From the NCBI GenBank assembly GCA_900617105.1, contig UYFQ01000289.1, forward strand, positions 1 to 54,111: a stretch of 54,111 nt of DNA, in the 5' to 3' direction. The stretch comes from Hydrurus foetidus. Taxonomy: Eukaryota. Position numbers and translations under genes: made by a program. Position 1 is the first letter of the stretch; every line of letters starts with the position of its first letter. This document shows positions 7,201 to 53,755 of this stretch, in pieces. The notes beneath the pieces were generated by a model, which saw nothing but the letters and a program-made list of their open reading frames with translations, did no database searches and was not told the DNA's origin.

Positions 7201-7907
7201 TGAAATTTGTCTGGCGTATTTATGTCTATGATATATTTCGATATTTCTGATATTAGCACCGTTGAATTTCGTTGGTAATGTATTCGTTTGACCATCTTTT
7301 CACATGGTTTCTTCTTCGAATATTTATTTGTTTGTTCATCGTCACTACTGCTGCTATCCTTATCCCAAAATTCTGACTGCTTCGGCGTTGATCCGATTTT
7401 GGTATTGTTGTTCTTATTCGAGTCCTTTCGATCCTTCATTGTCGTTATTGAGGAATCGCTCGAAAAAATTTTGCGAGGGTTTCCCCCGTAATTCAATCTA
7501 CTAGAAATTTTGCTACTACTAACGGACGATTCATTATCGGACGGCATAGGACTAGATGGACTTGACGGACGGAGGTTTATAAGAATCGCTCTAGTCTCAG
7601 TGTTCCTAGACGAGGGTTGATCGCCTAACGGCAGATCCACCCTTGGCGCGATGTCGATTAACCCTAACGGGTTATCTATAATCGGGCGCTCATCTCTTAA
7701 CAACTGGATTTGGGCGATTCTTCTATCTAAAGCTGCCCGGAATTGAGGGCTTTCCTCATCGATTACAACACCGATGGGAGGCTCCTCAATTCCTAATGCA
7801 GGAGTCAGAGGGAGAGTAGGTATTAGTTGTTCAATAGTGGGCGGCGGTGGCTCCTCATCATCTTCTGATGTAAATGGCCCCGGGCCTTTCTTTCCTTTCG
7901 CCATCAA
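4267..7907 (-). CDS. Copia-type Gag-like protein with CCCH zinc finger and long unknown/acidic C-terminal extension (ORFs 4944..7907 and 4267..4962 probably one frameshifted ORF)
   Basis: LSTTGLLTLIEG..P and helical segment resembling Copia Gag; C-x7-C-x4-C-x3-H finger (CFGFQKGTCNRPTCKYKH); no protease DSG/DTG, RT or integrase follows; the two ORFs overlap by 19 nt. Confidence 0.6.
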
Positions 7908-8500
7908 AAACTTGGGCGGAGGCTCTTTGAATCTATCTTTGAAGTCTTTAAGTCTTCAATCGCTACCATGTGAGTTGCCATGGGATGGCACGAGGTCGGG
8001 AGGACATATTGCAAATGGCCAAACGAAGGTTGAGAGGTTTGGTTAGTAAATTCTTTTTTAGGAATTAGAAACTGGCACGGAGGCCACAAAGCATAAAATC
8101 ATTTCTACCTGTTGCACATCATTTCTACCTGCCGCACAATAATAAGATCTCAATCGTCATGCGCATGCAATTTGACTGGCTCTCGTAGATTTGCATCTAC
8201 GTTGTTGTATAGGCGAGATAGTAGCTACTCAACTGTAAATATGACGTTTGTACTAAAAGCTAGACTTTTGGTACCAAGTACCGGATAAACACTATACAGC
8301 TGTGGTTATTATGGTGTAACAATGGCAATATACGTGATACGAATTGGCATTGAGGAAGCGACTTGGTGCACATTGCACACCAATAACAATCTACAAAATG
8401 TGTTTACTTATGATATCCTATCATGCTAATTGTTGATTATACAAATGGTAATATACAGCTATAACTAGCACTTATCGCTGTTATATACCGACACAGATAT

Positions 8501-10133: not shown

Positions 10134-13100
10134 TTAGGCTGATGTCTCAATGTTTCTGGGAATGAAATGTTTCATTTTGTTATCCCGTAAATAATCATGG
10201 AGTGCTTCACAGAGCCGTAGTGATTTCCACGGCTCCCATGTATTATGAGAGTCATCGTAGTTGAGCCATTTAACATGGAACGACATTGTAGTCGGTTTCT
10301 TGGTGTCACCAGCGTGACCCAGAACTTTCTCAACCACGAACTCCATGTAATCGCGACGAGCAGTGTCAGCAGGTATATCTACCTCTGGGTCATAATTGAA
10401 TATTTTCAAATTTTTGACGTGAACACTTCGTGTCTTGTGGTTTACAAGATTAGCGAGAACGTACTCGGACCCCTTAAAGGAGACAATACAGTAAGGGCCA
10501 TGCCACTTAGTATGTAATCGAGTTGGAGGTCGATCAGTGTATCGGCATAAGACATATGACCCCACGGGGAACACAGTCGCTGATTCAGCTGACGCGGCGT
10601 TTTTAGCATCCGCTTTTAACAAAGTTTGAACCGCAGTTTCAAGTACTTTGTCTTGTACACTTATCAAATCTGATATGTACGTTGATCTTGAATGTGTTCC
10701 AACACTTAAGTGTGGAGTGAGAATACCACGATTCAAATCAAGTTTGTTCCCGAACAATAAATGAGCGGGGCAGACACCTGTGCGTCTATTAACTGAACTG
10801 TTAATGATACGTTGCACGAATGGGATTGACTTAGCATATCCCTCAAGGGTTTGTTTATCAAAAACTAAACCTCTTAAGTGTCTATTCACCTCTTTGTTGA
10901 CTCTTTCAACAATTGCATTCTCTTGTTTCGAGTAAGCAAGGGTGAGATTATGTGGTGTTCCACAAAGATCTAAGAATTCTTTGATCAATTCATTTGCGAA
11001 ATGTGATCCTCGATCAGATCTAATCATATTTGGTGATCCAAATCGACCAAAATGCGCAAGCAAACAGTCAGCTGCTGATTTAGCATCTGCGTCTGCACAC
11101 CAGAACAATTCTGTCCATCGTGTGAATGTATCGATGATGACTAGGATATAACCTTTGTCAGGAAATGGACCAATATAGTCAACATTTAGCGTATCGAAGA
11201 TAGCATAATTTGAAGTTGCAAAATGAGACGCATTGATCTTAGGATCTTTTGCACTCAACTTTTGACAACACGGACAGTTCTGTATGAACGTACGTACATG
11301 TTGTTTCATGTGTTTCCATACTTGTTGTAAACTAAACAACCGAGTAAGGGTACGGTCTACGCCGTTGTGACCGACAATTGCATTGTGGCACATTTGAATG
11401 TATTCTAACTGATCGTCTGAAGCTGGTTCTATGACCGTCAGAGCTGATACAGTGAAAGAAGATGATGAAGTAGGAAGTAATTCCAATTCTTCTGTTCGTA
11501 ATGGCAGAGCAATTTCTGTCAGATTAGGACAAAGCCTTGACAGTGCGTCTGCCAAAACATTCGAAGTACCGGGTACGAATACCACGGTAAAATCTAGTTC
11601 TTGCATAGCAATGAACCATCTCGCCACCATTGAGGTAGGATTTTGTTTCATATATGTTATGTTCAAATGATCCGTATGGATAGTGAACGTACGATCTCTG
11701 ATTAGATAATCGAGTTGTGTACAACAAAAGAAGATGGCATAAGCCTCTTTTTGTATCGTAGACCACCTTATTTGTGTGGGTGTCAACGATTTGCTAATGA
11801 AAGCAATTGGTTGCCAAATGGCACCAACAACTTGGAATAAGACTCCACCGATACCAAAGTCGGATGCGTCTGTATACAAGCGGATGTCTAACTTATTGTC
11901 ATCAATGAAGTACATTAATGGACAACGAGATATAGCAATCTTTGTGTCAACAAATGAGTTGGTGCTCTTTTGAGTCCAAACTACAGCAGAACGTCTCGGA
12001 GCAGAGTGATCAATCATATCCTGCATTGGCTTAACCAAAGTGGAATGCATTGGTACAAACTGTCGAAAATAGTTCGCTAAACCCAAAAATGACCTGAGTA
12101 AGGTTAAATTTTTAGGTATAGAAAAGTTTAAAACTGTTTCTATCTTCTCTTTTGACATGGATAAACCATCTTTGTCAACGACTCTGCCAACGTATTCAAT
12201 ACGTGGAAGGCCGAAACGGCATTTTTAGCTTTGAGTCTTAGACCCTTAAGTCTAAATCTTGCAAAAACTTTTTTCAAGTTAGTAAGAAACTCTGCTTCAC
12301 CCTTGCCATATACTATACAATCGTCGAGATACATCTCGCAACAATGATAGATAAGGCCATAGAGGACCGCCGTTACCATCTGCTCTTGAAAGTAAGAGGG
12401 GGCTCGACACGGACCAAAGGGCAGTCTCGTAAACTGAAATACCCCCGCAAAGCATATGAATGCCGTAAAAATGCGGTGTGCGGGGTGTAACGGTGCTTGA
12501 TGGTAACCAGCGGTTAAATCCATCACACCAAAAATATCCGGTTTTTTATTACCGATCCTCTCAAAGAGGTGTTTGATATTTGGTAACGGGAATGAGGCCG
12601 GCTTAAGACACCTATTAAGTGGCCGGTAATCGATGCAGGTTCGAAATTTACCGGGTGACTTAGTTACTATTACAGGATGACTGTAATAAGCGGCATCTGA
12701 TCGCTCTATAACCCCTGATGCAAGCATCTCGTCAAGGTTTTCTTTGAGAGCAACCTCTTTTGTTGATGACTGGGGACGTACCGGCGTACGGTTTTCGTCT
12801 TTTTCCCACAACTCAAGTGGGATGTTAATCTCAAAGGGTTTAAGTGACGCTGGTTTCTCAGCTAATTGATCACTGAAGATGTCTGAATATTCAGAACAGA
12901 GCTCTCGGAGCTTCCTTTGAAAGCTTTCATCTCCTTCAAAGGTAATCTCTTTGAGGAAATCCTCTGGCCCTTTGGGCAAGTCATCTTGACTAGGTTTCTC
13001 CGCCAAGAAGGGGCAAACGTATCTATCTTGCCATCGTCAATCTCGTCAACTGAGAGTGCGACACCACTGGGCCATAAAGGCTCAGTGACATAGTCTAAGG

Positions 13101-13920
13101 TATCAGAGTCCTCAGAAGTGTTTGTAGGGGTGGGAATCTGGTCGCCACCTAGGTGCGGTGTATCACCCGTACGTTTTGCGAGAATAGTAGTGACACTATT
13201 CAGTCGCTCACAACCTACAACACCACAGGGATCTTGGGTAGCTACTCCCTCGATCTCCATCTGAGTATCGTTACATGTCGACATTGTATGGACACAAGAG
13301 ACGTTGCTCTTCGAAGAAGATTGACCATGCAATATGCTCTTCTTGTTTGGATACTCGGAAGATCCGTGTGTTTCTCTCTTTTTAGAGGGTGGTTTACCGC
13401 CTGGATATTTCAGCTTGTCGTAGTGAGGTGTTAAAGACTCGACTACGGCTGTATCAGGTTCGGTACCCAACGCTATCATACGACGCGTATATTTGTGTTG
13501 AAACAACGGATCGAGTTTATCCAAAGCTTCTTTTCTTTCGAATTCGCGTCTGCGAGCATCGCTCTTTCTCTTATTCTCAGCACTTAGCTCAGGAGAAATG
13601 CCGAATGCAAACGGAGTTAACGTCCAAAAATCATACTTATTTACCGTTTCACGGCTAAATAAAATGTCGATGTCGGTTTTCCGATTGACCCTCATGGGTA
13701 GGCTGATGCTATGGCATTCACCATCGTAAGAATGAAAAAGGATTTTTAAATCGCAAATTTCGTTATTTAGATAGCATTGGCCATCGAGACCGCTGCAAAC
13801 AGTTATGGCTTTAAGAGCAGGATAACATAAGTGAGTAGCATTTAATTTTTCAATCATGTCATATGAAATAAAATTGTCCGAATAATTGGCCGTATCCATT
13901 ACGGCCTTCCCGCGGCGCGC
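10134..13920 (-). CDS. pol: G1 Pol: aspartic protease, RT, RNase H, integrase, chromodomain (split over ORFs by 1-nt frameshifts)
   Basis: KAVMDTAN; RLPFG..YLDD; LYTDASDFGIG; H-H-C-C zinc finger; D-D-E (NVDYIGP, RSDRG, AIVER); chromodomain FHVKWLNYDDSHNTWEP. Confidence 0.95.
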
Positions 13921-13947
13921 AGCTCGCTAGCTGGGCCTGTCCTGTCC

Positions 13948-15571
13948 TTATCCTGCACAATAACCGTAACGTTAAGGTGGTGAGAAGCGAGGATGGAAGG
14001 GGTATGTAAAAATTCTTCACGAATAGGTACAAGTGGCTGCACTTCGAGATGATCATCAGTCAGATTAAAGACATCATCATCGAATGTGGCAGCCACACAG
14101 TCATGGGCAAGGTTCTTACCCTGGTGTTGTCCCGGCTGAGTGTTGGGAGGAGGGTTGTGTCCCTGCGGGGGGTTGTATTTACCCTTACCGCCGGACCCAC
14201 GGCCCTGGTATTGGTTCGCATTGGGGTTTTGATGGCCCCTTTGCTTACCTCTACCACCCCCTGGTTACCCTGGTTACCATAACCAGATTGGTTCTGGGAG
14301 TTTCCTCCTTGACCCTGGTTGGAACGATCTGAACCATCCGAGGTGTTGGATTGGTTCCCAGAACCATGGCTGTTCTTGGCGCGCTTGTTGTCGTTACACA
14401 TCAAGTAAGGTTTAGAACCTCTGGGGTAGAACTGAACTCGTTCCTCGTATCCAGGAAGGACGAGGTTGAGTTGCCATTCAGAGTACCCCACCGCGGCCCA
14501 AGCCATCCCCACTGTAGAACTCTCCCACTCAACTTGGTGATTCGTGTTGGAGTCGGAGTAATACAGGATGGGGCAGTCTGCCAAATTGTGCGACGTAGCT
14601 CCGCACGACCGGCACGGACGAAACATCGGTACGAGCGGTACTTCCGTGGAAGCACGGACAGAGAGTCCGTGCTGCGTCGGAACGTACGAGCTAGGAGTAC
14701 GCACAGTAGCAGTGACTGATCTCGACGAAGCGGAGGGTGTAGGTGAGGGTGCTTTAGCACTCGCTCTACTCGTCTCCTTCTTACCAACGTCTGGTGGAAC
14801 TGCTGATGCAGGAAACGAGTACACCGTGTCCGGGTTGCCATAGCTTTTGATGAGGTTCATCATTGCCCTAGCCTCGGCAAGAACCTGACCAATGCGTAGC
14901 ATAGTCGAATACCACGTATGAGGTGGGGTATTGTCAGCAGCTTTCGCTTTCAGGTAATCCTGTTGGATTTGACTACCCTTGGCTAGGCGCTTCTCCAATA
15001 TCAATATGAGCTCAGCATGCTGAGTCTCTGATAATGGTCCCTTAGACCTCTCATAAGTGCTCACAAGTTCGTTGTAACGTACGAATGTGGCATTCTCATG
15101 ATCGTGGTTAGCGATCTGATAATGGAAGGGAACTTGGCTAAAGCTCTCTGCCAGAGTACATTCTCCCAAACCATTTGGAGAGAAGTACTTTATTATCAGT
15201 TTGGCTACCTGAAGTACCGACAATTTAGTCTGCCAATCATGGCGTTGTCGTCTATCGATGATGTTAAATTCAGGATCGATCATGATCCTGAAATTAAGTA
15301 ACTCGATTGCCTGCTTCTGCATGCAATCGGTTAGCTTCATCAACGGGTACCTCTGAGCCTGTTCGTAGAACTCAGTCGCATCAGCTTCATCAATGAAGTT
15401 ATGCCTGAGGACGAACACCTCACCCTGGAGTTGCATCGTCGAGGGGAAAGCTGGGAACAGCGAGTTCGACATTGAGATAGTCGACTCGTTGAGCGCGGCT
15501 AAAGCTGCCAGACGTGCAATCTCCTCTTCGTCCGGATTCGGATCAGGGTTTGGGTTAGGTGGTGATGACAT
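13948..15571 (-). CDS. gag: G1 Gag with CCHC zinc knuckle
   Basis: ORF 14060..15571, CRSCGATSHNLADC, G/N/Q-rich tail; 3' end depends on a G-run frameshift near 14258 and a predicted intron 13953-14119. Confidence 0.85.
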
Positions 15572-16133
15572 GTCTAATCACTTATCGATGTAAATCTCAC
15601 TGAAAGTCAATGGAGATCGATAACCCCTGCTCAGAAAAATTTTTCAAGAGCTTCGCCTCGTTCACAAACGGGTACTGTAACGTCAGTAACAACGAATGAA
15701 GCAATTCTACCCAACTCTTGAACTGAAAAGTTCTATGGCGTGAAAGCCAAATTTAGAGTGGTAGAAAATCTGGGTGCCTGTTAAGGTCAAAGACGTTGCT
15801 CAACGTCGACAAAAAGAAGTCTATAGACTAATCTTATGTCTCTGGTGATGAATCTGTGATTCGATCGACCAGCGGAGCAAGTCTAAAATGACTTTTGGGA
15901 AGGATAAATCAACTTCGACCAAAATGTCAAGTTTGGAAGAGCCCAATGCACGGGGATTCCAAGAAAGCAGTTAATCTGACTTTCTCTAACTTAGACTAGG
16001 TCTTCTGAGCCAATGGCTGCAGAAGAAAACGGCTCGAAAGTCGTTGAGCAGACGCTCAGAAGTCTTATCTACAGGTTGGGACGAGTAGACGGAATGAGAG
16101 GTAGCAGAGAAAAGAGTGGACTAATAGCGCTAT

Positions 16134-33735: not shown

Positions 33736-34177
33736 GAGACCCAGAGACCCTACTGAAGATGATCCGCAAAATGAAGAGGAAGAGGACGAAGACGAAGATG
33801 GAGAGAAGAAGATGACGATGATGCTAATGGAGGGCCTGATGACGTCTCTCTGAACGATCTCCAAGATGTCAATGACGGAGGAGAGCTGTCCCAGAGCAAG
33901 GGGCAGGTGAAGAAGAAGATAGGTGTCGGGGCCAGGGATAAAGGCAGAGGAAGGGGTAAAGGAGCATCGAGCACTAGTGTAGGTGTGGGCAGTGGTAGAG
34001 TGAAGAGAGGCAGCAGCATGAATGACGATGAGGAGGACGACGAAGATGAGGAGGAGGAGGAAGGGAGTGTGGATGTGGATGCAGATGCAGATGCTGACAT
34101 ATTCGGAGATCCTCCTCTCCTGCCCACCAGACCTTCAAGGGCCATCAAATCCAAAGGGTACGTACATACGAACACGC

Positions 34178-34240
34178 TATCGTATCGTATCGCATCGTAT
34201 CGTATCGTATCGTATCGTATCGTATCGTATCGTATCGTAT
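34178..34240. repeat. (TATCG)n microsatellite, probably intronic
   Basis: Directly visible; lies between a GTACGT donor-like and a CTGCAG acceptor-like site. Confidence 0.9.
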
Positions 34241-34981
34241 TTAATCTGCTGCAGGAACCGGTACACTTTATCTCATTGCGACACTAACGTAGTATCTGAT
34301 GTACCCTTTCGCATATTTCGCAACTCTTGGGTCTTAGGTCTCGCAGACCTGTGGGGCGGAGGAGTGGCGACTAATAACTCCAAGTGCGTCAAGAGACCGA
34401 TTCTCCGCAGAGACCAGCAAAGTCAGGGACAAAGGAAGAACCCCCTCCCTCATCCTGTCGATGCAAGCACTGTTGTTACAAGCGCTGTTGCAGTCATTGT
34501 ACTGCACGGCTACTGACCCTCTTGTTGGAATATTTACCGGGGAAAAAATGATTTCATGGGAGATAATACGTAGTGTTTCACATGTGTGCATACTGTTCAA
34601 TTATTCATGTTACAGCTACTTGTCACTCCACCCTCTGTGTTCTATGTTGGATGATGATCTATTTGTCAGTGAAATTTTCTGTCATAGCAGTGACAACCCG
34701 TACTGTACTGTACTGTACTGTACTGTATACTGTACTGTAACGGCCCAATTAGTTCCAAACGATATAAATCGGCTAAATTTACTTGATATTGCTAATCAAA
34801 TCATAAAATCAGACTTGCAGCAGCCATCGATATTACTGTGCGGCAGACGCTTGTTGCCAGAGCAGCCTAAGGGGTGAAGTGACTCGAACGATGTTACGCC
34901 CAGCACCCACATAAATATATACTATACTATAACAGACAATATAATCGCTGCAATGGATCAGCGACTCGAAGTATTCCCAAC

Positions 34982-39510: not shown

Positions 39511-41098
39511 CGCATAACATATGACCATTGCACACACAAAAATGCAATATCTGAAGTCAGCAATATCTTGTCCTGCCCTGTCCTGCACGACACAAAGTTT
39601 TAGTGTGGCATTCTATCAGGACGCGGACCTAATCTCCTTCATTTCCGCTCTCCTGGATGACGTGTAGTGTGTAGTGTATGGGCGCACATCGAGCTGGGAC
39701 TGTGCAACCACATTCCATCATGGTCCCTTGAGGGATGAGAGCCACTTCCGTGTAAGTAATTACCACTCATCACATTGGAGGGATACTCGACATTATGGGT
39801 TGTCCTGGATGGGCCTTACAGATTGGGAGGCTAAAAAAAATTTGCTGATGTACCGTACCAGACCTTTTTCAATTGCTGTGCTTTCTGAATATATGAGATG
39901 CGACATGAGTTATTCCTGCAAACCTGCTGCATTGACATTGGCAAAGTTGATGGAAACACACTGAATACTGTATTGCTTACAGATTACAATGTATCGTACC
40001 ATTTGACGGTCAATCAACCGATAGTGCATCCCCCTCCATCTGATATCAACTGCATGTTGCAGTGTGAGTTCGATTGCATCAAAGACGCCATCAGCGTGTG
40101 AATCCATTTCAATCAAGGACGTCCAGAATTTATTTCTCAGCGATGGTGCAGTCGATGACAGCAATTTGTTGGACACCACGCTATGGACACTGATCACAGA
40201 CACCATTGCTTTCCATGCCACGCAAGTAACATCGATCAGTGCGGTACATTATTCCCGGATTCAACATTATCCTGGCTGCAGTAAGAGAGACATTGCGGCC
40301 TGTCTAGACTTCAGACACCCCACACAATTAGACACCGGTTGATTTTACAGTTCTTTGGACTTATCTACCGAATTGAACAAATGCCAGTTAAACTGTTAGA
40401 AGTTCCCTCAGCAACGATGGAGTATCAAGTTGTAGTGTAGATATATCATATCATAATCGTACTGTCCAATCGCCCGCGCAAAAAAATACAGCGATTTCAG
40501 TAAAATACAGGAAAAGGTCAGCAAATCTGTATGCGTACTAATCCCTCCCCGCATCCATATGCGGTGTACACTAGTTCGCAATTGAAAACAGATGGATCCC
40601 AATCGAGAGAGAGAGTAGAATCCTGCCATTCTGCCTTTTTTTTATTTATAATACTACGGGCTGATGACGTCTAAACCGGCCAAGTAAATTCAGTCCCTCT
40701 GAACATATCTTCGACCCAGCGGTTTTTGACGTTCAATAGCTCAAAAAAACGGAAATAATATTCTGCGCTTACTGGCGTCGTTACATAAGGCTCAAAATTT
40801 GAAATTCAAAATTTTTACCCCAGAAACTGTTTGGAGGCAATTTAAGGATCGATATCTTGCTTGCAATTCGAATTTTGGACCTTATGTAACGACGCCACGC
40901 TGTAGGTATAATGAAAGCGATCATTTCGGTCTATTCACTTTCCATTGAATCGTTGCCAAAGATATGTCCTGTGGAGAGCAATTTTTCGAATTTTTCGTAC
41001 TCTGAATTTCCATATTGGTCAAAAATCGCGGAAAATATTTTTGAAACCGAAATCTGACTGTAAAAAAACCCGGATATGACGAAGGGTCGTGATTCGCG

Positions 41099-41526
41099 AT
41101 TCTCTTTCTCTACACGGTCTCAATCCTCTTGGTGGTAATGGCGTACGTACAGGTCGGAACGTATTCACTCCCGTCAGGTTTTTTCTCGATTTGTACATAC
41201 CGTACGTGCGCCATTTAAAATAATGTCCGTACTTACGTACGTGCTGCCTGGCATGCTCTCCGTAAGTACTTACGAACGTACTCAGATGCCTCGTCCGTAC
41301 ATCACTAAAGACGTCCGTGCACCCCTAGAAGCTGTCCGCGCAGGGTGGAACGTACGTAGTTACAGTTCAACATAGGACCATCTCGTTAATTAACTCTTAG
41401 TTACCCTAATTGGGGTGCACTCGTGTGCCCAGACGCCTCCTTCAAGACACAGACACCACCGGCTCGATCTTACTCAGCCAACCGGTGGGTCCGGATTCTT
41501 GTCAGGGTTAGCGATCACCTTCACCC
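41099..41526 (-). repeat. Repeat B2 of YR element
   Basis: Copy of 41997-42423; the only difference I found is the length of a T run. Confidence 0.95.
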
Positions 41527-41608
41527 ATCCGGGCACGCAAGTGGTCGGGTAAACAAAATTCAAGCAACAAAACAATTCAATATGATAGGCATGGCTGGCT
41601 ACGGGGTA

Positions 41609-41997
41609 AAAAACTGTTTAACTTGAAGATTCTGCGAAAGAAGCTGCTAAAACTGCGTAATATTCAATTTAAACCTACTATGCATGTGCACTGCAGTCTT
41701 GCAACCAGTGCTGCAAGAACTGAAAGATTTGCAAGAAATGAAGCATTGAAACGTGGACAAAACCGTATAGTGTTAGGTGTGTGTACACTGAAAACTGAAA
41801 ACGTGTTCTGTGTTGTATTCTACGTCTATTGCTGCGCTACACTTTGTCTTGTTACCGTTCTCCAAAAATTCCATAAGGAAGTCTAAGTCCAAGCAATTCG
41901 TACTTCGGACCTAAAGAGAACAACTTGCAACCGTTTTGAGCCGACTCCGATCCAGAGAACCCAATCCGCAAGTGCACAAGTTCCCGGCGTCATACAA
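41609..41997 (-). repeat. Repeat A2 of YR element
   Basis: Copy of 47671-48059 (offset 6062). Confidence 0.95.
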
Positions 41998-42423
41998 TTC
42001 TCTTTCTCTACACGGTCTCAATCCTCTTGGTGGTAATGGCGTACGTACAGGTCGGAACGTATTCACTCCCGTCAGGTTTTTCTCGATTTGTACATACCGT
42101 ACGTGCGCCATTTAAAATAATGTCCGTACTTACGTACGTGCTGCCTGGCATGCTCTCCGTAAGTACTTACGAACGTACTCAGATGCCTCGTCCGTACATC
42201 ACTAAAGACGTCCGTGCACCCCTAGAAGCTGTCCGCGCAGGGTGGAACGTACGTAGTTACAGTTCAACATAGGACCATCTCGTTAATTAACTCTTAGTTA
42301 CCCTAATTGGGGTGCACTCGTGTGCCCAGACGCCTCCTTCAAGACACAGACACCACCGGCTCGATCTTACTCAGCCAACCGGTGGGTCCGGATTCTTGTC
42401 AGGGTTAGCGATCACCTTCACCC
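41997..42423 (-). repeat. Repeat B1 of YR element
   Basis: Copy of 41099-41526; overlaps last codons of YR. Confidence 0.95.
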
Positions 42424-43602
42424 GTCAATCCAAGGTGAGCCCTTTCAGTGTTGCGTGACTGTGGTAGGAACCGCCTAATGTCGTGAACGTCAGGACGGGC
42501 ACCCCCGTTCAGTGCATTAGATGAAAGAGGGCCATGGCCAGCTGATGAGTAGTCATAGGTTTGTGCCATCACTCTTGATCCGGATGCGTATCCTCCTCTA
42601 TCTCTCATGTCTTCCTCTGACGCTCCAAGTGCCCTCATGTGCGTCGTGGCAGCCTTTCGTAATGAATGGCTCGAGAAATGCTCCGCTGGCAACCCTTCCA
42701 GTACGCACGTACGTTTTATCTCGTCCCTCACCATTCTTGCGTTGAGTAACTTTTTCGACCTGGTACCGCACTTCAACTCAGTATAGCGGGTAAAAAGTCT
42801 GTCTGACTCAGCCACCCCCGAATGAGTCACCCAGTTCACTAGGTCATCAAGAAATTGACTCTCTTCAGCGGTCCTCCTCCCTATCAGCTTCATCTTCATG
42901 ACTGAAGTCGTCTTCTGGGAGGCCGCCTTCACCCAGCATGCACACACCAACTCCGGTTTAGGTAGTATCTGCCCCCTTTCTTCCTTTCTCCAGAAACTAA
43001 CTCAAAGTCCAAGTCACTTGCTCTCACGCAGTGATCTTCGCCTCCTCTCTCCGGTGCAGTGTACTCGCTGACCCGAGCGTCCATATTGTAAGCCCACATT
43101 ACAGCCAGGTATACCATCCGTCGGTCTATACCAACCTGATCCCATACTGCAGTCACCCATAGGCGGTCTCTCATCCGGGCTAAAATACTTTCGCATAGGG
43201 GGAGTTTCACACTACCGCTGGGGCCCTCATTTCTTTTATCCCGTATCTCTGCAGTGCTAAGCCTGCATGCTGCCCGAGCAGCTGTGAGGACTGGGGAGTC
43301 CAGGAACCGACAGGGTAGCAGGGCCGTAGTGAAAGCGAGCTTCAAACCAGCCGTGACTGACGTGGCACCCTTACCACGTGCACCGCCGTTATACCGCGTG
43401 TGAAGATACAAAGCTACTATAGCAGCCTTATCCTCCTCACGCTGCCCTCTCAGATAGGGATCTTTGCCCGCTTCGATATTCTCTATGAACTCGCACCACC
43501 CTTGCCAGTGACCATCGTACGTCTTAGCAGTTCCCACTGTGACTGACTTCCTTAGGAAATCACCTAATTCGACCTTACCCTCTGTCGTGAGGCCTACGCA
43601 TC
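42405..43602 (-). CDS. Tyrosine recombinase of the YR retrotransposon (one 1-nt frameshift near 42958)
   Basis: TAKTYDGHWQGWCEF N-terminal domain; catalytic R (ARVSEY), HSLR, GGY, Y (AQTYDY). Confidence 0.9.
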
Positions 43603-43729
43603 CTATATTAGAACAGAGTACAACGGCGACAGACGGAATTAGTTATCGTCTAAGTCACCACAATGTGGTTACAAGGGCTCTGATGCGCCTGCATCGACTT
43701 AAGTGCCTCAGTACCCCTCGCCTCCCTTT

Positions 43730-43872
43730 TCACCCCATTCCATCGCGTTCCATCCCATCCCATCCCACCCCACCCCGTCCCACCCCATTCCATCCCCTGT
43801 ACTGTACTGTACTGTACTGTACTGCACTGTACTGTACTGCACTGCACTGCACTGCACTGCACTGCACTGCAC
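43730..43872. repeat. (CCATC)n, (TACTG)n, (CACTG)n microsatellites inside predicted intron 43603-43882
   Basis: Directly visible pentanucleotide repeats between RNase H and YR coding regions. Confidence 0.9.
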
Positions 43873-45988
43873 TACACCATACTCATCGCCCCCTCCAGAG
43901 CATCCCTAATATCTCCCCAGAATCGGATGAAATCTGATTCTGTATTGAACAGGATGGATGGATCACAGCTGGCAAGAAGACGCTTGACGTATTTGCAACC
44001 CTGAAGATCTACATCTCGGCTGCCTTCCAAACCGATACTCTTCATCACCTCGTTAACTGATTTACCAGACTCCCATAGACGAGAGAGTGCGTCGCATTTG
44101 CCATTATCACTCCCTGATATATGCGTCGACTCCTTGACGACCAGCTCCTGGGTGATACAGAGCATGGTGAATACCATGGAGGCGTTCGAGACGTTGGAGC
44201 CCCTGTACCTCTCAGTACTCACCCAGGTGAGGGCAGAGACGCTGTCTCCCCGCATCGCCACGTCTACCCCCCTAACTCCCAATTTTCCTAAACCGATCAT
44301 CCCCAGCGTGGCACCGATAAATTCGCAAAGGTTCTGATACGAGGAGTCATCCTCGAATCCTAAAGTACGGAGACTCACTGCACTGCCACCCAAACAGACC
44401 TCAGCGCCGTTGATTCTTCTGTACCACAAGATGCCGACCCCATTTAGGGAGGCATCAAATTCGACAATATACTCCGGCATCCCCGTTACAAAGGATTGCA
44501 TTGGCCTGCTGTACCGCTCCTCGTCAAAGCGAACGAGTACCAACATGGTCCGCCATAACCGGATAGCCAGCTTCGCCTGGTCATTCACCGGAAATGTTGA
44601 CATTCGAGCTGTTCTGCCGGCGGCCATCCTATGGAGGGCGCCGCTAAAGGGACGCATTGCCCGGCAAATTGAACCGTACCTACTACCCCACGATGCTAGT
44701 CGCTGAGCACCACGAAGGGAGATGGGTTCCTCTACATCGACTGACATGAAACCAAATAGGGTATTAAGAAAGTTTTTCCTTGAGATGGTGACTCTCATTA
44801 GATCCAGATCAACCGTGAAGCCGATGATGTCTAGTCGCCTACCCCACTCCGTTTTATCCTCGGCCACCGCCGACGACCCAAGTAGGTCCGTACACACCTT
44901 CTTGGCACGTACGATATCCTCTGCAATGTCCTCTTCGAAGCATATACCGATGATATCATCAACGTACATCTCGACCGAGCTTTTCAGTATGTGGGACAGC
45001 TCCCATTTAATAGCTCGGGTGACCGTTTGAAACGCAGCAGGTGTGCATGCCCAGCCAAAGATGCCAGCTATCTGTAAGTACACTAAGTCACCCGTCACCT
45101 CCATGCCGAAAAGGCCTGCATCCTCAGGACGGAACGAGAGAAGGGTGTATGCCCCTCGTAGGTCCATTTTCCATAAGCGTAAGTGGCTCCACTGCACTGC
45201 TGAGTTTGACTCGAGAGCCTTCTCCCAAAAGGACATCATCATACGGACTATCTCTGCGATAGTAGGATGCTTGATTGCACCGTATAGTTCAGCGGCTATT
45301 GCAGTAGTCGCTTCAGTGTTCAAAGGGGTTCCAGTTACGTAAGTGAGGTCGCCAATCGGTCGCCCGCTAGGCTTTCCCTTCTTGGGTGTCCAATGTGCAG
45401 CTCCAAGTGCAAATTCGGTATGCAGCGGATGGCGATATCCTTCGGAAGCAGAAACGCTAATTTCTGTTCCACTATCCCCCCTAACATCTTGTTCACCGCT
45501 GAGTCCACTTTCAGGTACGTGCTCCTGAGGGGTGCTAATGGTAGGGCACCATTTGGTTCAAAACCGACTGGAATAGGTACGCGCATACCAACCGCTAAGT
45601 CGTAGAGGAGACCCCTTTCGGGGTTGTCTGACCTCAGACGGTCTACTCTTGCACTGCTTAGTCGGTCAGAGGACAATATTTTTAGCCGGCGACGCACCAT
45701 CACGACGAAGTCGAGCTGAGCTGCTTGGAAGCACTTCATGTCACTCAACAACATGGCCTTGGGAAATGTGTACCCTCTGGCCCATGCGACAGCTGCATCG
45801 ACCCCGTACTGCTCATCCGATGCTGCAATTGCCTCCATAACGGTCGTTTGAAGAAACAGTCGAGGTAGTTGATTCGTGTCGGAGAAGTAGGAGTCCGCCA
45901 TCCTGCTCATTTCATCTATGAGGCCTGGCGGAACAACCGGCTGCACTCCTTTGACCTTAGGGGTTAGGCCACTACTCTCTTTGGGGAG
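43872..45988 (-). CDS. Reverse transcriptase-RNase H of the YR retrotransposon (1-nt frameshift near 45402)
   Basis: KMDLRGAY, IFGW, YVDD, IIGF; RNase H FDASLNG, NLCEF, RGDSVSA, HISGSDNGKCDALSR. Confidence 0.93.
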
Positions 45989-47664
45989 TCATACGCGGGT
46001 CTTGCCGCTTTTGATCTTGCCCAGAGCATCCAACGAGGGCTGGCGGAATCTATGAGCAAGACCGGCTGCGGTATTAGTCTTCTTAGCCTCGGTCCAATTG
46101 GTGATGTCATCGTGGTGAAACCTGCAGGTGTCACCGTACTGACAGGTGAACGTACGTGAGGTCCTTGGATCCTGTGCCTTGACTTGTCCAGCAAAGTGCT
46201 CTCCGCACACAGCCTTCTTTGCATCCGCACTGACTGCTGCTTTCACTTTCAGCTCTGACTTGCTGCCCGGCAGTAATGTCTTAGCCGGATTTCCTAGTCG
46301 ACTCCGGTAGTCGAGCAGCTGATACCTAGCCATAGCTTCATTCAGCTTCTCTTGAGTGTCGAGTGTGCTGACGAAGGTCTTGAGCACCAGACTCAGGTAG
46401 GTCGCGCATGCTGCTGGAGTGCTGATGTCTCTGAGGGTCATATTCACAGTGGTGGTGGCCATGCGCAGTGCTCTGAAGTACTTTGACAGTGCTAGCTCAA
46501 GCGAGTGTAGGAGGAACCCAGACGGTGCAAGTTCCATTGGTCGGTGGAGACCTTCCAACTTATCGACAAAAGCATCGGTGGCCTTGTGGAATGCCGATCC
46601 GAAGAAGATCACGAATACAAGCTCCATGTTCTTTACAGCCACCACCAATGCTCTATTCTGGTGAGGACATGGTGTTAGCTCAATTGGAATCTTGACTGCT
46701 CTACCAGCAAACTTCTGTAAGTCCAGTGCATCCCCAGGGGGACCGCCAAAATCTCCTGTTAACAGTTTCTTCAACAGCGGAATGTCGACGGAGAAGTTGA
46801 GGTTGAAGACCCGATCGAGCAGACCGCAGCATTTGAACCCCGGATCGCGCTCGGTAATTCGAAGTGTCGACTGCTCGTTGATCACCCTGGCGTACTCCTC
46901 CGCTTGAAGCTCACACTCTGTCCCCATTACGTAAGGCCACCTTTCACCGTCGCATACCCGAAATATCACACCCAACTCCTTTTCCCTCTCCGCTAAATCC
47001 TTCTTAACCCGTGTTGTATGCGCTCTTCCTTCCAAATCGATAAGCACACTGACATACTTCTTCTCACCTTGGCTGTGCACCCCCCAATCGTCCTGCATGC
47101 CGAGTCGGAGACGCTTGTCCAGGTGTGCCCCTTCTAAATTATCCTCCAAACGCCTCTTCTCAGATACCGTCCATGCTGCCACTTGATGCATCGCCACCCC
47201 TTCCAGTTCCTCCACTGCCTGAAGGAAATAAGTTGGTGTAGCTACGCTGACCCGAGTCCCCACAGGGAGTGTGTCGAGCGGCCGATGTCCTTTTCCCGTC
47301 AACCCCACGAGCATCGCAAACGTAGTCGTGCTCGACGGCTTGCCTCGTAACTGCCACATTTGTACCGTGGAGTCATCGAGGAAGCTCATGGACAGCTTCT
47401 CTCCCTCTGGTAATGGTATAGCGGGGAGAAGAAAGATTGACTTCTTCCCATGTCCTGCCATGAGCGCATCGTTGCGTTAAAGCTCAAACGCAGCGACCCC
47501 TCACCACGATACTCATCATGAATGAATCCGGCAATGGCGTTCATTGACACAATTGCTGCAGCAGGAAGAATACCGTATTCTGGTAGAGACAGGCCGACTG
47601 TGTTTGCAGTTGACGGGCTTAAAACGCTCTCGTCTTCAGGGATGTCAACAGAAGAACCGCTCAT
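45989..47664 (-). CDS. Gag-like ORF1 of the YR retrotransposon with C-terminal CCCH-like finger (ATG 47664, probable 1-nt frameshift near 47478)
   Basis: 490-aa ORF 45989..47461 plus upstream ORF starting just after repeat A1; VCGEHF..CQYGDTCRFHH. Confidence 0.75.
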
Positions 47665-47670
47665 TGCAAT

Positions 47671-48059
47671 AAAAACTGTTTAACTTGAAGATTCTGCGAA
47701 AGAAGCTGCTAAAACTGCGTAATATTCAATTTAAACCTACTATGCATGTGCACTGCAGTCTTGCAACCAGTGCTGCAAGAACTGAAAGATTTGCAAGAAA
47801 TGAAGCATTGAAACGTGGACAAAACCGTATAGTGTTAGGTGTGTGTACACTGAAAACTGAAAACGTGTTCTGTGTTGTATTCTACGTCTATTGCTGCGCT
47901 ACACTTTGTCTTGTTACCGTTCTCCAAAAATTCCATAAGGAAGTCTAAGTCCAAGCAATTCGTACTTCGGACCTAAAGAGAACAACTTGCAACCGTTTTG
48001 AGCCGACTCCGATCCAGAGAACCCAATCCGCAAGTGCACAAGTTCCCGGCGTCATACAA
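47671..48059 (-). repeat. Repeat A1 of YR element
   Basis: Copy of 41609-41997. Confidence 0.95.
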
Positions 48060-48210
48060 AAACCGGAGAGTTCTTGCGAAAGCGGTTTTGATGTTTTAAA
48101 CGAATTTCAATTTCCCCTCCGGTCTCGCTCAAAAATTTGGTGATAGTTCAGTTTTAGGTTTTTCGACCCGGAGAGATTTTGACGGTTCTTGACGTCATCA
48201 GCCTGTACTG

Positions 48211-48493
48211 TAGAGCTTGTGGCCGGTCACCCAGGCCGGCCGGCCTGGCCGACCGGTCATCTTTTTGATGACCGGCCAATCTGCACCTACCATATTAGGG
48301 GTAAATTTACCGAATTATAGGGTGACTTTCCAGAATTTTAGGGGTAGCTCACAAAATTTTCGTACTTTTGGGGGGTTATTTCACGGTTTTGGGTATTTGA
48401 CTCCCTTACACGGTTTAAATCATTGGCCAGCCGGCCAACCGGCCGATGGCAGAAATTTTAGGCCGGCCAGGCCGACGCCTGATTTGGTCGTCG
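48211..48493. mobile_element. Probable left part of a small DNA transposon (hAT-like TAG start, GGCCGG subterminal repeats) interrupted by G2
   Basis: TAGAGCTTGTGGCCGG start and many GGCC/CCGG motifs in both orientations; second TIR not in window. Confidence 0.35.
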
Positions 48494-48755
48494 TGTAGCC
48501 TTATTGCATTCCTAAGGGGATACAATGTGTCTAGGTTAACTAGGTACAATAGGTATACTACGCCCAGATTCCACTTTTAGGTCTTAGTTCTATGTATGAT
48601 GTGAGTGCACTAGCGTACACATCACTTGTATATATTCAACTGTAAGATATTAACATAAGTCTTCTCTACCGACTTCCGCTTCCTCTTGCTCCACCGCTTG
48701 CCCACCGTACCAGCCACCAACAGCTCCGACGTCCTAGGCCCCACCGTCGACCACA
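48494..48755 (+). repeat. 5' LTR of G2 (262 bp)
   Basis: TGTAGCC...CGACCACA; 5' part repeated at 53956-54111; 3' end inferred from the terminal inverted motif and analogy with G1. Confidence 0.9.
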
Positions 48756-48848
48756 ATATCGATATTTGGTCTCCTACCAAAGTTTTTTCTTGAGAATTTT
48801 CTTCTCAAACTTATTTTATTCGTCTTCATTCTCCGACATCCGACATAT

Positions 48849-50343
48849 TATGGCGCTCCGACGTCAGGGAAACAAGACCACCTCCATCAACACTTTGCGA
48901 CGACAACAGCAGCCACCTCGAGCTGTTGCCGTCGCGTTCCGACAACGCTACGACGAGCATCATAATCGTGGGGGAGATATTTTCGAGTCTCCTGGGCCAC
49001 CTGCGGCTCAGGACCCCGCCGGCGACCTGTCTGCACCGATTCCTCAGCGGAATTCGGAGCCTGCGGTCATGTCTGCCATTGATGTCCCTGTCATTTCTGC
49101 GTTGAATGCTTTATCATTGCAACCAGCTTCGGCTGAGACACCAGCTTCGGCTGAGATACCAGCTTCGGCTGAGATACCAGATTCGTCTGCGACACCAGCC
49201 TCGGCTGAGATTCCACGTTCGATGGCACCACCTCAGCACTATGTGCAGACGGGTGAGAGAGCTCCTAAGTTGAGCGCCATGCCCTCTCGACAGGAAGTCT
49301 TACGAGTTACGGAGGTTCTACTTTCAAATGGAACTCCGTTTCGACCAATTGATGTCGTTCATGCTTCAAACCATCAATCGTTCACAACGCTTCTCAAGCG
49401 TAAATTCGCGACGAATCCAACTCGTCGTGATGCGTGTAACGGTTGGAAGCATTGGACGAATCAAATGTTTTGTAGAGAATTAAATATCACAATTCCTACA
49501 TCAGCTGTCAATCGTACTGACAAGCTGAGTTTCATTGAAACAGTTTCTCAGGTCCCACTTCAATTCGACCTGAAGAACAAATCAGTTGAAGATAAGACAG
49601 ATCAACTTTTAGCTGATATTGTTGATGCCTTCCCTGATGTGACACCTGCTCTCCAACTTCAGGCAACAAAAATTCTCATTGAGAAGTTGCCAGTCGAACC
49701 TGTCAATTGGAGAGCAGTGTTACAACGTTGTCTTGACGACACTACGCCTAGACTCATCACGATCGAAGATTTTCGATTCGTATGGCTGGCGCAGTTAGCA
49801 AAACTTCGTGAATCAATTGATGCTTTGCGTTTCATTGATGTCACACCTTTGTATGGCAGTAACTCTCGCCAGATCAAAGCCCAACCTCGTTCTTCACTTG
49901 ATTCGCAAATCAAAAAGCGTCAACGTGAAGACGAGCAATCTGTGCAGGCTGAAAAGTCTGATAGGCCTCCACGACCTATGTGCACAGGTTGTGGGAGACT
50001 CGGCCATGTAGTCGCCACGTGTTTCTACACTTCGTCTCCGTACTATAACAGTACAGACGCTCCCTATCTCAACTCTGAGGGTCATAAGCAGTTGTTGAAA
50101 GTTGATCCGAAGGCTCAGTTCATTCCGACTTTGCCTAAGACAACCTCTCTTCTTCGTCTTCTTCCTCCTCCTCTTCTTCGTCAAGGTCTGCTACTTCAAC
50201 AGCAGATTCGACACATCCTTCGAAGAAACACAAAGGTGAGCAACTATGCAATCTCAACTCATCATCTACTCTCTCCGATGATCCAGAGCTGATCCCTTTC
50301 TACATCTCTCCTCTTTCACAGGAGCCGTTGTTGGGAAAAGTGA
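48849..50343 (+). CDS. gag: G2 Gag with CCHC zinc knuckle
   Basis: ORF from ATG 48849; CTGCGRLGHVVATC; 3' end depends on a frameshift near 50147 and predicted intron 50236-50321. Confidence 0.85.
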
Positions 50344-53300
50344 TAGAGTATTTACTCTTCTGGACACCGGCTCTTTTGCTGGCAATTTTGTCAATCGCCG
50401 CATTATAATTTCTCATAAACTAACACAATTTATAACTAAAACTAATAATAAATTGTGTAGAGTTTGTAGTGGATTAGATAATCATTGTTATGATATCTCT
50501 GATACTATAGACTTAACTTTATCTTCTTTTTGCCATGATTTAAATAATTACTATACTTTTCCAATCACGGCTTATATTTTAGAAGATTCTAAATTTGATC
50601 TAGTAGTGGGACGTAAAACAATTCGTCAATTGAATTTGTTTTCACGATTCCCGGATCAAATATCCGCCAATGCTTCATCAGGCACTGTTCCGTTGGAAGA
50701 AGTTTTAACTTCTGAAGATGTGGACGTAACGTGTGGCTGCTTGCCTAAGGAGAATTTGCAACCCTCCGAAGGCTCCCCAAAAGTGGATCCTTTAACCCAA
50801 AAGGTGAAACCGGCAGTCACCCAAACACACGTTATTCTAGCCTCGCTGATTCAAGAGTCAGAAAGACTCTTTGGAGCAGTACCACCTGATGAAGACGAAA
50901 TCGACGACTCGATCAAGGACTCGTTTTCACCTTGGATGGATGAATTTCCTGCTTCAGATCCACTCTCGCTAATACACATAGCAGGTGATGAAGAGCAGAA
51001 AAACAAATTACGTATACTAGTACACGAATTTGAGGATATATTTAGCAGTGAACTATCACAAACTCCTGCTGATATTCCACCTTTTGACTTTAATGTCAAT
51101 GATACTAAATGGAAAGTACCTAAGAATAGGCAACCTCCATGGACAAAATCAAATGTTGATCAAGCTGACATCTTAAGTCAAATAACAAAGCTTGAAAAAC
51201 ATAAAATTGTCGAAAAATCAAACGCGGCATATTATAGCCAAGTTTTGTTAGTTCCTAAATCAGATGGAACTAAGCGTATGTGTATAGATTTTCGGAACTT
51301 AAATAACTGTACCGAAGATACATCACATCCTATTCCACACATCGGTGAGATGTTGCGTCGAATAGGTGCACATGGAGCAAAAGTATTTGCTGTACTTGAC
51401 CTTACTCAAGGATATCATCAAGCACCACTTACGCTCGCTGCACGCGCTTATACTGCATTCATACTATTCTGCGGTGTATATCAATTTACTCGTTTACCTT
51501 TTGGGCCTAAACAAGCTCCCTCCTACTTCCAACAGATCATGACGACTGTTGTGTTAGCAGGGTTGATATACTCTATATGCGAAATGTATATTGATGATTG
51601 CAATGTATTCGGTAAAGACATTGATGAACTCATTTCGAGACTTCGTCTTGTTTTTGAACGCTTTAGAAAACACAAAATATTCCTTAAACCGAATAAGTGT
51701 TATCTTGGCTACGCCGAAATAGACTATGTTGGCAAAGTTCTTTCTGCTGAAGGACTAAGAATGTCACAAGAAAAATACGGAATGTCTTAGATTTTCCTAA
51801 ACCAGTACTATCTAAACAACTTAAAAGTTTTTAGGATTGGTTAATTATTTTCACGATTTTGTTAGAAACGCTTCAACTGTTGTATATCCAATGAACCAGT
51901 TGTTGCTTAACTACAATAAATATAAGAAAATAACATGGACAATAGAAGCTCTTCGAGCATTCAATTTGATCAAATCTGAGATTTCTAAATGCACGACTAT
52001 GCACTTTCTAAGTGACACCGATCCGATTTACTTGCACACTGATGCATCGGACTATGGTGTAGGTGCCTATCTTTTCCAGTTAGTTGACGGAAAGGAGACG
52101 CCCATAGCATTTGTTAGTAAGTCACTCAACAAAGCTCAGCTTCGTTGGGCTGTCATACAGAAAGAAGCATATGCTATCTTTTATGCGTGCACGTATTTAA
52201 AATCGCTATTACGTGATCGTACGTTTACATTACGTACAGACCATCGTAACTTGTTATACATAAAGGAAAATTCAAATCCAATGATAGTCAGATGGTTTAT
52301 GGCCTTATCTGAATATTCATTTAACATTGAATATATTCCTGGACCTAACAATAACATAGCTGATTCGATGTCTCGACTCTGTCGCAATAACATGGTTGAT
52401 TTTCCTCAGGAATATACTCCTGATGCAATCATGTCTGCTAATACTATTGAAAAATTTAAACTAACACGTGAGCAGTATGACAAAATCAGTGAACTGCATA
52501 ATTCACAAGTTGGTCATTTCGGCCTCGAGCGTACTATAAAACGTCTCAGAGATAGAAATGAAAATTGGCAATATATGCGACAGCATGTCAGGTACTTCAT
52601 AGATCACTGTTCGTGTTGTCAGAAGATGAGTATGTTAAAGATACCAATACATGCTCATGGCTTCTCGACTTCTACTTACACACCTATGGAATGCCTAAAC
52701 ATAGACTTCATAGGACCGTTTCCAGACGGCGGGTACGTACTCGTAATTATCGATACGTTCACAAGATGGGTTGAACTGTTTCATACAGAAGATGCTACTG
52801 CACTTTCAACAGCTAAATGCCTCTTGCAACATTTCGGTCGTTTCGGCGCACCTCTTCAACTCCGTTCTGATAATGGGCCACACTTCATTTCCGAAGTAAT
52901 CAAAGAGTTTCTAACTCTGATTGGCACTCAACATTGTCTTACTTTAGCATACTCTAAAGAAGAAAATGCTATTGTTGAGCGCATGAATAAAGAAGTTAAT
53001 AGACATCTTCGTGCATTAACTTATGATAATGTCACATTAGAAGACTATAAAACATCACTTCCATTTGTGCAAAGAATTATAAATTCTAATCACAGTGATC
53101 GTTTGAAGATATCAGCTTCACAACTTCTTTTCGGAAATGTACTTAAACTCGACAGAGGTATCTTTTACCTCCTGCTGAGCGAAACGTTACTGATGACAAA
53201 CCTTTGTCAAAACGATTAAGCAATCTAATCAAAACACAAGATAGTCTTCTGAAAGCTTCTGCTAAAGAACTTCTTCGTACAGATTTGCTGCATCAAAGTC

Positions 53301-53755
53301 AGTCTCAAGTTTCTCAACATGTAGAGTATCCGAAGGACTCATATGTTCTTGTGCACTATCGCGATGGCTCTCCTCCTTCACGCCTTCATACGCATTGGAG
53401 AGGTCCATTAAAAGTCGTTAGTGGCGAAAATTCGCGTTACACACTATATGATTTAGTCACTCAGAAAACTTCAGAGTTTCATGTATCTGCAATGAAACCG
53501 TTTCTATTTGACCCTTCAATCACAAATCCGTTGGATGTTGCACGACGTGATCACATGGAATACTTTGTTGAAGACATTCTTGATCATCGTGGCAAACACC
53601 AACGTACCCACATAGAGTTTTTAGTCAAATGGTTGAACTACCCTTCTGACAAAAACACTTGGGAACCTTACTCAAGTCTTCGTGATGTTGATAAACTTCA
53701 TGATTATTTACGTCATAATAACATGACTAAATTAATCAATAAACAACATCGATGA
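50322..53755 (+). CDS. pol: G2 Pol: protease, RT, RNase H, integrase, chromodomain (several 1-nt frameshifts)
   Basis: LLDTGS at 50357-50374; RLPFG..YIDD; LHTDASDYGVG; HHCC; NIDFIGP, RSDNG, AIVER; FLVKWLNYPSDKNTWEP. Confidence 0.95.

What the first reader, a model, noticed from the sequence alone, without database searches (positions are those of the whole stretch)
43603..43882. Microsatellite-filled intron in the YR retrotransposon would fuse RT-RNase H to the tyrosine recombinase
Seen (minus strand): the YR frame has no ATG before its conserved N-terminal motif. Upstream lie a branch-like TAACTAAT, a pyrimidine-rich stretch and acceptor AATATAG|GA (43603). A donor ATGA|GTATGG (43882) sits three codons before the RNase H stop. 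Removing the 280 nt gives ..ATG AGA TGC GTA GGC.., joining RT-RH and YR in frame. The segment holds pentanucleotide microsatellites like those in host non-coding DNA here. Known: DIRS/Ngaro elements usually encode YR in a separate, often overlapping ORF, and retroelements normally lose introns. Inference: unspliced RNA serves as the genome and yields RT-RH, while spliced RNA yields an RT-RH-YR fusion.
Basis: partly seen in the sequence, partly recalled or inferred. Interest (0 to 1): 0.8.

Follow-up and report, generated by a model that had tools for sequence, protein, structure and literature searches.

The report
Spliced Gag-recombinase fusion in Ngaro retrotransposon
A jumping gene in an unnamed freshwater microbial eukaryote likely makes its start-less DNA-inserting enzyme by splicing it onto the front third of its shell protein, skipping the reverse transcriptase; a related natural copy carries exactly that join, whereas the short intron first proposed is poorly supported.

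Summary
The sequence observation holds: GTATGG at 43882, TAG at 43603, 280 nt, in frame, and no ATG near the YR start. The element is a young Ngaro-type YR retrotransposon (41099-48059, split direct repeats A-ORFs-B-A-B). The acceptor looks real: the junction Gly and a branch-compatible motif recur in close relatives. Its likely partner is not the RNase H-end donor but CAAG|GTGAGA inside gag (47067). Two natural proteins from a related family (P0004, P0021; two ENA contigs) read Gag...GVHSQG|LSGLT...YR, joined at exactly these two codons. One contig is too short to hold the unspliced element, so it is probably a retrotransposed spliced copy. No spliced RT-RH-YR product was found among 17 long YR hits or 324 stored proteins. 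Best reading: a 3,465-nt intron gives a roughly 600-aa Gag(N)-YR fusion, while unspliced RNA is genome and Gag/Pol mRNA. No RNA run was listed, so splicing is not seen directly. This scan reported Gag-YR splicing earlier in other genomes; the processed copy is new evidence. My literature searches found no report of it.

The parts
47671..48059 (-). Terminal repeat A1 (389 bp), 5' end of the element
   Evidence: 100% identical to A2; empty-site joint 41098>48059 in DNA runs X5, X6, X1
45989..47664 (-). gag-like ORF1 with C-terminal CCCH finger; ATG at 47664; one-base frame break near 47446 in the window that short-read contigs do not have
   Evidence: Pfam zf-CCCH; homologs P0018-P0020 of 568-576 aa
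47062..47070 (-). Likely splice donor CAAG|GTGAGA in gag (first intron base 47067, phase 1, codons Q-G-E-K)
   Evidence: Rank 1 of 254 GTs under the host matrix; QGE(K) in 5 of 5 gag families; P0004 junction falls on this Gly
43603..47067 (-). Predicted 3,465-nt intron removing the Gag C-part, RT-RNase H and the spacer
   Evidence: inferred, not seen in RNA
43872..45988 (-). RT-RNase H ORF, in frame directly behind the gag TGA (context GTA TGA CTC); one-base break near 45404 absent from short-read contigs
   Evidence: Pfam RVT_1 E 0.004; intact 691-aa family member P0059
43877..43885 (-).
   Evidence: Rank 169 of 254; the aligned codon can be NGT in only 5 of 15 relatives
43734..43877 (-). Pentanucleotide microsatellites in the RH-YR spacer
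   Evidence: present in family copies, whose contigs break here
43603..43645 (-). Branch-like TAACTAAT, pyrimidine-rich stretch and acceptor ATAG| (last intron base 43603, phase 1)
   Evidence: Gly at the same column with an NYA-compatible residue before it in 6 of 6 close YR sequences; same layout in L005 DNA
42405..43602 (-). Tyrosine recombinase exon without its own ATG; one-base break near 42971 absent from short-read contigs
   Evidence: Pfam Phage_integrase E 5e-6; HSLR...Y motif; intact family member P0001
41997..42423 (-). Repeat B1
   Evidence: 99.8% identical to B2
41609..41997 (-). Repeat A2
41099..41526 (-). Terminal repeat B2, 3' end of the element

Best explanation
This is a young Ngaro-type retrotransposon whose start-less tyrosine recombinase is likely made from a spliced subgenomic RNA: a predicted 3,465-nt intron from the gag donor at 47067 to the acceptor at 43603 would remove the Gag C-part and all of RT-RNase H and give a roughly 600-aa Gag(N, ~199 aa)-YR fusion. 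Unspliced RNA would be the genome and the mRNA for Gag and, probably by readthrough of the in-frame TGA-C, Gag-RT-RH (inferred). The spliced RNA keeps all terminal repeats, so it could occasionally be reverse-transcribed in trans and integrated, leaving processed copies like P0004/P0021 (inferred). The 280-nt microsatellite segment is then the 3' end of the long intron and the 3' UTR of the pol message. Shown: the signals, the frames, their conservation and a natural Gag-YR junction in a relative. Inferred: splicing in this host, readthrough, and any role of the Gag N-part in packaging or targeting.
For: (1) P0004 and P0021 (two ENA contigs, 21,059 and 4,125 bp; one residue apart) match gag over residues 4-184 and YR over 189-395. 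On the window, the gag HSP ends at 47066 and the YR HSP starts at 43603, sharing Gly184, i.e. exactly donor 47067 and acceptor 43603. Their parent gag P0018 (93% identical) reads GVHSQG-EK. (2) The unspliced span would need at least 4,359 bp, more than P0021's 4,125-bp contig, so the join is on the contig itself and not a spliced gene model (this uses P0061 as the family's RT, inferred from shared contig lengths). (3) The donor ranks 1st of 254 GTs and 1st of 67 phase-1 GTs under a matrix from 11 host introns. (4) QGE(K) is kept in 5 of 5 gag families; a frame-broken copy, P0251, reads AKVRR as the window does in the shifted frame, which fits AAG|GTGAG at DNA level. (5) The acceptor Gly, with I/T/T/A/V/I before it, is in 6 of 6 close YR sequences whose call reaches that far; in the 5 long enough, a branch-compatible motif sits 12-13 codons upstream in two different frames. 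L005 DNA has CTAAC 40 nt before a phase-1 TAG|G that is also its RNase H stop; L001 has a phase-1 TTTAG|G before an ATG-less YR.
Against: No RNA was examined, so splicing is not observed. The DNA of P0004/P0021 could not be fetched, so the junction is resolved only to the codon. The two may be one locus seen twice, and they come from a related family (72% YR identity), not this one. An AG-G microhomology deletion could mimic a splice. No 43602-47068 joint appeared in 8 DNA runs (9 joints listed; 15 of 27 shown). Host introns are 69-199 nt, far shorter than 3,465 nt. The donor matrix rests on 11 sites. In the distant family L001-L003 the codon aligned to the donor Gly is GGA, so the donor position is not kept there, though other strong phase-1 donors exist in its gag. 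L005's YR has an ATG 5 nt after its acceptor. QGEK conservation could reflect protein constraint (54% of aligned gag columns are invariant).
Confidence: 0.78

Rival explanations
1. One reading: the 280-nt segment is a true intron and the main route to YR, giving an RT-RH-YR (or Gag-RT-RH-YR) fusion.
For: In frame. GTATG-type donors occur in the host (2 of 11, as GTATGA). L005 has a phase-1 A|GTGAGT 62 nt before its acceptor. P0224 and P0261 read RH-linker-YR in one frame, and P0283 holds both domain types. Fungal Ngaro YR can be in frame with RT-RH (PMC3783388, passage).
Against: Rank 169 of 254 and no G at -1. The aligned codon can be NGT in 5 of 15 relatives and 2 of the 4 closest. Donor-like dipeptides in RH tails (7 of 15) are not clearly enriched (p 0.23 by within-tail shuffle, 0.05 against RT bodies). 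L001 has no donor there. L005 has 4 such motifs in 529 codons, so one near the end may be chance. None of 17 YR hits of 367-2000 aa exceeded 435 aa. P0224 and P0261 keep an intron-like linker, so they are unspliced.
Confidence: 0.07
2. Alternative splicing: the gag donor is the main one, but RNase H-end donors also feed the same acceptor as a minor RT-RH-YR isoform.
For: The window and L005 both have phase-1 GT sites near the RH end; in-frame RH-YR readings exist in distant relatives.
Against: Position not conserved and enrichment not significant; absent in L001.
Confidence: 0.15
3. No functional splicing: YR is made by re-initiation, a non-AUG start or a frameshift, and P0004 is a chance DNA deletion.
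For: No RNA seen; L005 YR has its own ATG; gene callers start family YRs at GTG-type codons; no processed copy in 8 DNA runs.
Against: Rough arithmetic, not a call: about 1/560 x 1/35, before allowing for microhomology. Branch and acceptor signals are conserved across reading frames.
Confidence: 0.1

Closest known systems
Ngaro retrotransposons (order DIRS), e.g. Cafeteria burkhardae Ngaro1-4 (PMC8547959) and Ectocarpus Ngaro families (PMC12477816)
   Same: A1-[gag, RT-RH, YR]-B1-A2-B2 layout, YR in place of a DDE integrase, no methyltransferase domain, about 7 kb.
   Different: Those papers describe YR as a separate ORF3; the section, passages and Ngaro supplement rows I read mention no splicing. 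Here YR has no ATG and likely joins Gag by splicing.
Spliced subgenomic RNAs of LTR elements and retroviruses (EVADE/BARE short Gag and the Ogre intron, from PMC12786077 passages; gypsy and retroviral env, recalled)
   Same: Unspliced RNA is the genome; a spliced RNA supplies another protein. The env-type case skips pol.
   Different: Here the spliced product is the integrating enzyme fused to the N-terminal third of Gag.
DIRS-1 of Dictyostelium (PMC7192593)
   Same: YR retrotransposon; its RT acts in trans on truncated transcripts, which makes processed copies plausible.
   Different: Inverted repeats with an ICR and overlapping ORFs; the passages I read report no natural Gag-YR splice.

Membership tests
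Ngaro (DIRS order) | Split direct repeats A1-ORFs-B1-A2-B2, internal repeats downstream of YR | tested here: met
   A 389 bp at 100%, B 428 bp at 99.8%, in that order; definition from PMC8547959 and PMC4157794 passages
Ngaro (DIRS order) | gag, RT-RNase H and YR, co-oriented in that order | tested here: met
   The Pfam RT and YR hits are below gathering cut-offs, but the motifs (YVDD; HSLR...Y) are present; a JGI homolog is named ribonuclease HI
Ngaro (DIRS order) | No methyltransferase domain after RNase H (separates it from DIRS1/PAT) | tested here: met
   No MT hit in Pfam; the ORF ends about 90 aa after the last RNase H motif
Ngaro (DIRS order) | RT/YR phylogeny groups with reference Ngaro elements | not tested
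   No reference Ngaro sequences were in hand; no tree was built
   Rank 169 of 254, lacks -1 G; codon compatible in 5 of 15 relatives
Spliceosomal GT-AG intron (3,465-nt, gag to YR) | Host-like donor, branch and acceptor in matching phase, conserved in relatives | tested here: met
   donor position not kept in the distant L001 family
Spliceosomal GT-AG intron (3,465-nt, gag to YR) | Precise intron-less product exists | tested here: met
   P0004/P0021 junction at codon resolution in a related family; nucleotide junction not seen
Spliceosomal GT-AG intron (3,465-nt, gag to YR) | Junction seen in RNA | not testable with these tools
   No RNA holder listed

The most novel reading that the evidence does not exclude
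Ngaro retrotransposons across eukaryotes express their recombinase through a retrovirus-like spliced subgenomic RNA as a Gag(N)-YR fusion. The Gag N-domain tethers or targets the integrase, which would explain why ORF1 appears to set integration preference in Cafeteria Ngaros. Retrotransposed spliced copies form a distinct class of RT-less non-autonomous elements.
Probability: 0.45. Interest if true: 0.8.

Novelty: new variant of a known kind. Interest (0 to 1): 0.6.

Why it matters
The papers I read say only that the YR ORF of YR retrotransposons is separate, frameshifted or overlapping; they do not say how it is translated. A defined splice junction, backed by a natural processed copy, makes this testable with one RT-PCR. 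It predicts the real integrase to be a Gag-YR chimera, which bears on how the enzyme is packaged and targeted (Cafeteria Ngaros lacking ORF1 change target preference, PMC8547959). It also warns that annotated Ngaro 'ORF3' proteins may lack their true N-terminus, and it offers a signature for finding processed, RT-less Ngaro derivatives.

Tried and rejected
No whole genome was held, so a genome-wide search for intron-less copies was not possible. No RNA holder was listed among 22 runs; this is not evidence either way. Eight of those runs were laid. X5 and X6 cover host introns evenly and behave as DNA; X10 is low-depth and shows no host-intron joints. No 43602-43883 or 43602-47068 joint was among the joints shown (12 of 27 not shown; contigs drop rare forms, and the microsatellite was skipped). 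Viral contigs gave nothing for YR or RT. The metagenome scan gave 4 loci, three of one distant family and one decayed; the genome scan gave 1 (L005). Gag folds were low-confidence (pLDDT 39.5 and 43.4), so no fold search was run. The Atlas gave no usable hit for the Gag N-part; the PDB sequence search gave only a weak zinc-finger match. The acceptor matrix from 11 host sites is too noisy to use: it scores the next phase-1 AG at 43594 higher, but P0004's SQG-LSGLT spacing fits 43603. Rejected: microsatellites as proof of an intron; the window's frame breaks as real decay (all four are absent from short-read contigs). Host taxonomy was not tested. Literature searches found no report of a spliced Gag-YR or RT-RH-YR product. 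The founding Goodwin/Poulter papers and reviews did not appear in these searches and were not read; supplements other than those of PMC12477816 were not read and could bear on this.

Full report
Observation. On the minus strand, 43882-43603 is 280 nt, starts GTATGG and ends AATATAG. Removing it joins the RT-RNase H frame to the YR frame (both phase 1), and the YR frame has no Met until 43174. A branch-like CTAAT lies 39 nt before the AG. Period-5 microsatellites fill 43734-43877, and similar arrays occur at 34178 and 34700.

The element. Repeats A (389 bp, 100% identical) and B (428 bp, 99.8%) are arranged A1-ORFs-B1-A2-B2 from 48059 to 41099. Between them lie a gag-like ORF with a CCCH finger, RT-RNase H without a methyltransferase, and a YR. 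This fits the structural definition of Ngaro in PMC8547959 (section 11 and passages read) and PMC4157794 (passages); phylogeny was not tested. Short-read contigs lack the window's four one-base breaks at 42971, 45404, 47446 and 47670, and intact proteins of this family are on record (P0001, P0059), so the family is coding-competent. In runs X5 and X6 the element's near-identical contigs have depth of about 2,000-2,400 against about 170 for host DNA, and an empty-site joint 41098>48059 occurs in X5, X6 and X1. The family is therefore multicopy and recently mobile. Runs holding it are mostly freshwater or sediment metagenomes; host taxonomy was not tested.

The acceptor looks real. In 6 of 6 close YR sequences whose called N-terminus reaches the site (window, P0002, P0003, P0005, P0006, P0176), a Gly sits at the same column, preceded by I, T, T, A, V or I. 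All are compatible with a YAG|G acceptor, and the sequence upstream is unalignable. In the five long enough, a branch-compatible motif (LI, ITN, TTN, ITD) lies 12-13 codons upstream, in two different frames; this is inferred from residues. In L005 (55% RT identity) the DNA shows CTAAC 40 nt before a phase-1 TAG|G that doubles as the RNase H stop. L001-L003 (one family, 38%) have a phase-1 TTTAG|G before an ATG-less YR.

Which donor? Eleven host introns (SMC3 x7, RPL18, OTC x3; 69-199 nt) were defined by the open full-length proteins they restore. All 11 donors have G at -1. A matrix from them ranks AAG|GTGAGA at 47067, inside gag and phase 1, first of 254 GTs in the element (11.1). The gag site encodes Q-G-E-K, kept in 5 of 5 gag families (one member of the P0020 cluster has QGER), against 54% column invariance overall. 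A frame-broken copy, P0251, reads AKVRR where the window's shifted frame reads AKVRR, which fits the same nucleotides. The RH-end site is not conserved: the aligned codon can be NGT in 5 of 15 relatives, and donor-like dipeptides in RH tails (7 of 15) are not clearly enriched (p 0.23 and 0.05).

A natural product. A search with the YR N-part over proteins of 367-2000 aa returned 17 hits of 374-435 aa. One, P0004, is gag for 184 residues and YR thereafter: GVHSQG-LSGLTAEGKAVLGDFL. Laid on the window, its gag match ends at 47066 and its YR match starts at 43603, sharing one Gly, which is what a 47067-43603 splice gives. Its parent gag P0018 (93% identical) continues GVHSQG-EK. A second member, P0021, lies on a 4,125-bp contig, shorter than the 4,359 bp the unspliced form would need, so the join is on the contig. 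P0004's contig is 21 kb, and the protein shows about 7% drift from P0018 and a frameshift, as expected of a genomic processed copy; the frameshift may be a sequencing error, since the window has one at the same run. Trans-acting RT is documented for DIRS-1 (PMC7192593, passages). Limits: the DNA was not seen, the two proteins may be one locus, and they belong to a related family. Of 324 stored proteins, 5 held two domain types: these two, plus P0224, P0261 and P0283 with RH and YR in one frame. P0224 and P0261 keep a long linker ending in T-G, so they are unspliced; P0283 is unclear (one search listed 150 of 322 hits).

Against, and left open. No RNA holder was listed. No joint for either splice was among those shown for 8 DNA runs. 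A 3.5-kb intron is far longer than the host's sampled introns. The distant L001 family lacks a GT at the aligned gag codon, although it has other strong phase-1 gag donors. L005 has a phase-1 A|GTGAGT in its RH tail and an ATG just after its acceptor, which keeps a minor RT-RH-YR isoform, or independent initiation, alive in some families. Fungal Ngaro YR can be in frame with RT-RH (PMC3783388, passages).

Mechanism (best, 0.78). Full-length RNA from A1 is the genome and the mRNA for Gag. RT-RH follows the gag TGA in frame in a UGA-C context, so readthrough is likely (inferred; the leaky-context rule is recalled). Splicing 47067 to 43603 gives about 199 aa of Gag fused to about 398 aa of YR (my count from the coordinates). 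The Gag part may package or target the recombinase; PMC8547959 reports that Ngaros lacking ORF1 change target preference, but this link is my inference, and folds of the Gag N-part were uninformative.

Relation to what is known. Spliced subgenomic RNAs are known in LTR elements (EVADE, BARE, Ogre; PMC12786077 passages). Ten literature searches, passages of PMC3266345, PMC6681497 and PMC12477816, and the latter's Ngaro annotation rows gave no report of a spliced YR in Ngaro. The library lacks most subscription papers. After I had reached this reading, the scan's own notes showed Gag-YR splicing proposed for Ngaro-like elements in other genomes. These notes are unchecked and are not counted as support; a look-up for processed copies found none.

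Verdict. Observation confirmed; interpretation partly supported (right acceptor, probably wrong donor). New variant of a known kind; interest 0.6.

Noticed in passing
window 45991-45986 (minus): The gag stop TGA is in frame with RT-RH (GTA TGA CTC), and all 5 gag families end GKTR[VL]; a candidate readthrough site for Gag-Pol.
   Followed up: partly
window 41098-48059: Empty-site joint in DNA runs X5, X6 and X1: this insertion is polymorphic.
   Followed up: partly
window 42971, 45404, 47446, 47670: One-base deletions in the window's copy that short-read contigs lack; three lie in homopolymers, so they are probably assembly errors.
   Followed up: yes
L005 1527-1600: The RNase H stop codon is itself the YR acceptor AG; the branch and pyrimidine tract lie inside the RH coding tail, with a GTGAGT 62 nt upstream and an ATG 5 nt downstream.
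   Followed up: partly
P0224, P0261: Distant relatives read RH-linker-YR in one frame, with an intron-like linker ending in T-G.
   Followed up: partly
window ~34158-34254 (plus): Candidate host intron GTACGT...TGCAG containing a TATCG microsatellite, downstream of the SMC3 stop.
   Followed up: no
window 232-7955: Copia-like pol ORF on the plus strand (232-3306) and a long Gag-like ORF on the minus strand (4944-7955), facing each other.
   Followed up: no
window 10134-15577 (minus) and 48646-53755 (plus): Two gypsy/chromovirus-like LTR retrotransposons with frame breaks.
   Followed up: no
window 40655-40897 and 48179-48500: Flanks of the Ngaro insertion are themselves repetitive (37-nt inverted arms; a 29-nt inverted match across the element), perhaps a MITE-like or other repeat target.
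   Followed up: no
X11 contig laid on 43384-44292: A related family has an RH-YR region 88 nt shorter, so spacer length varies.
   Followed up: no
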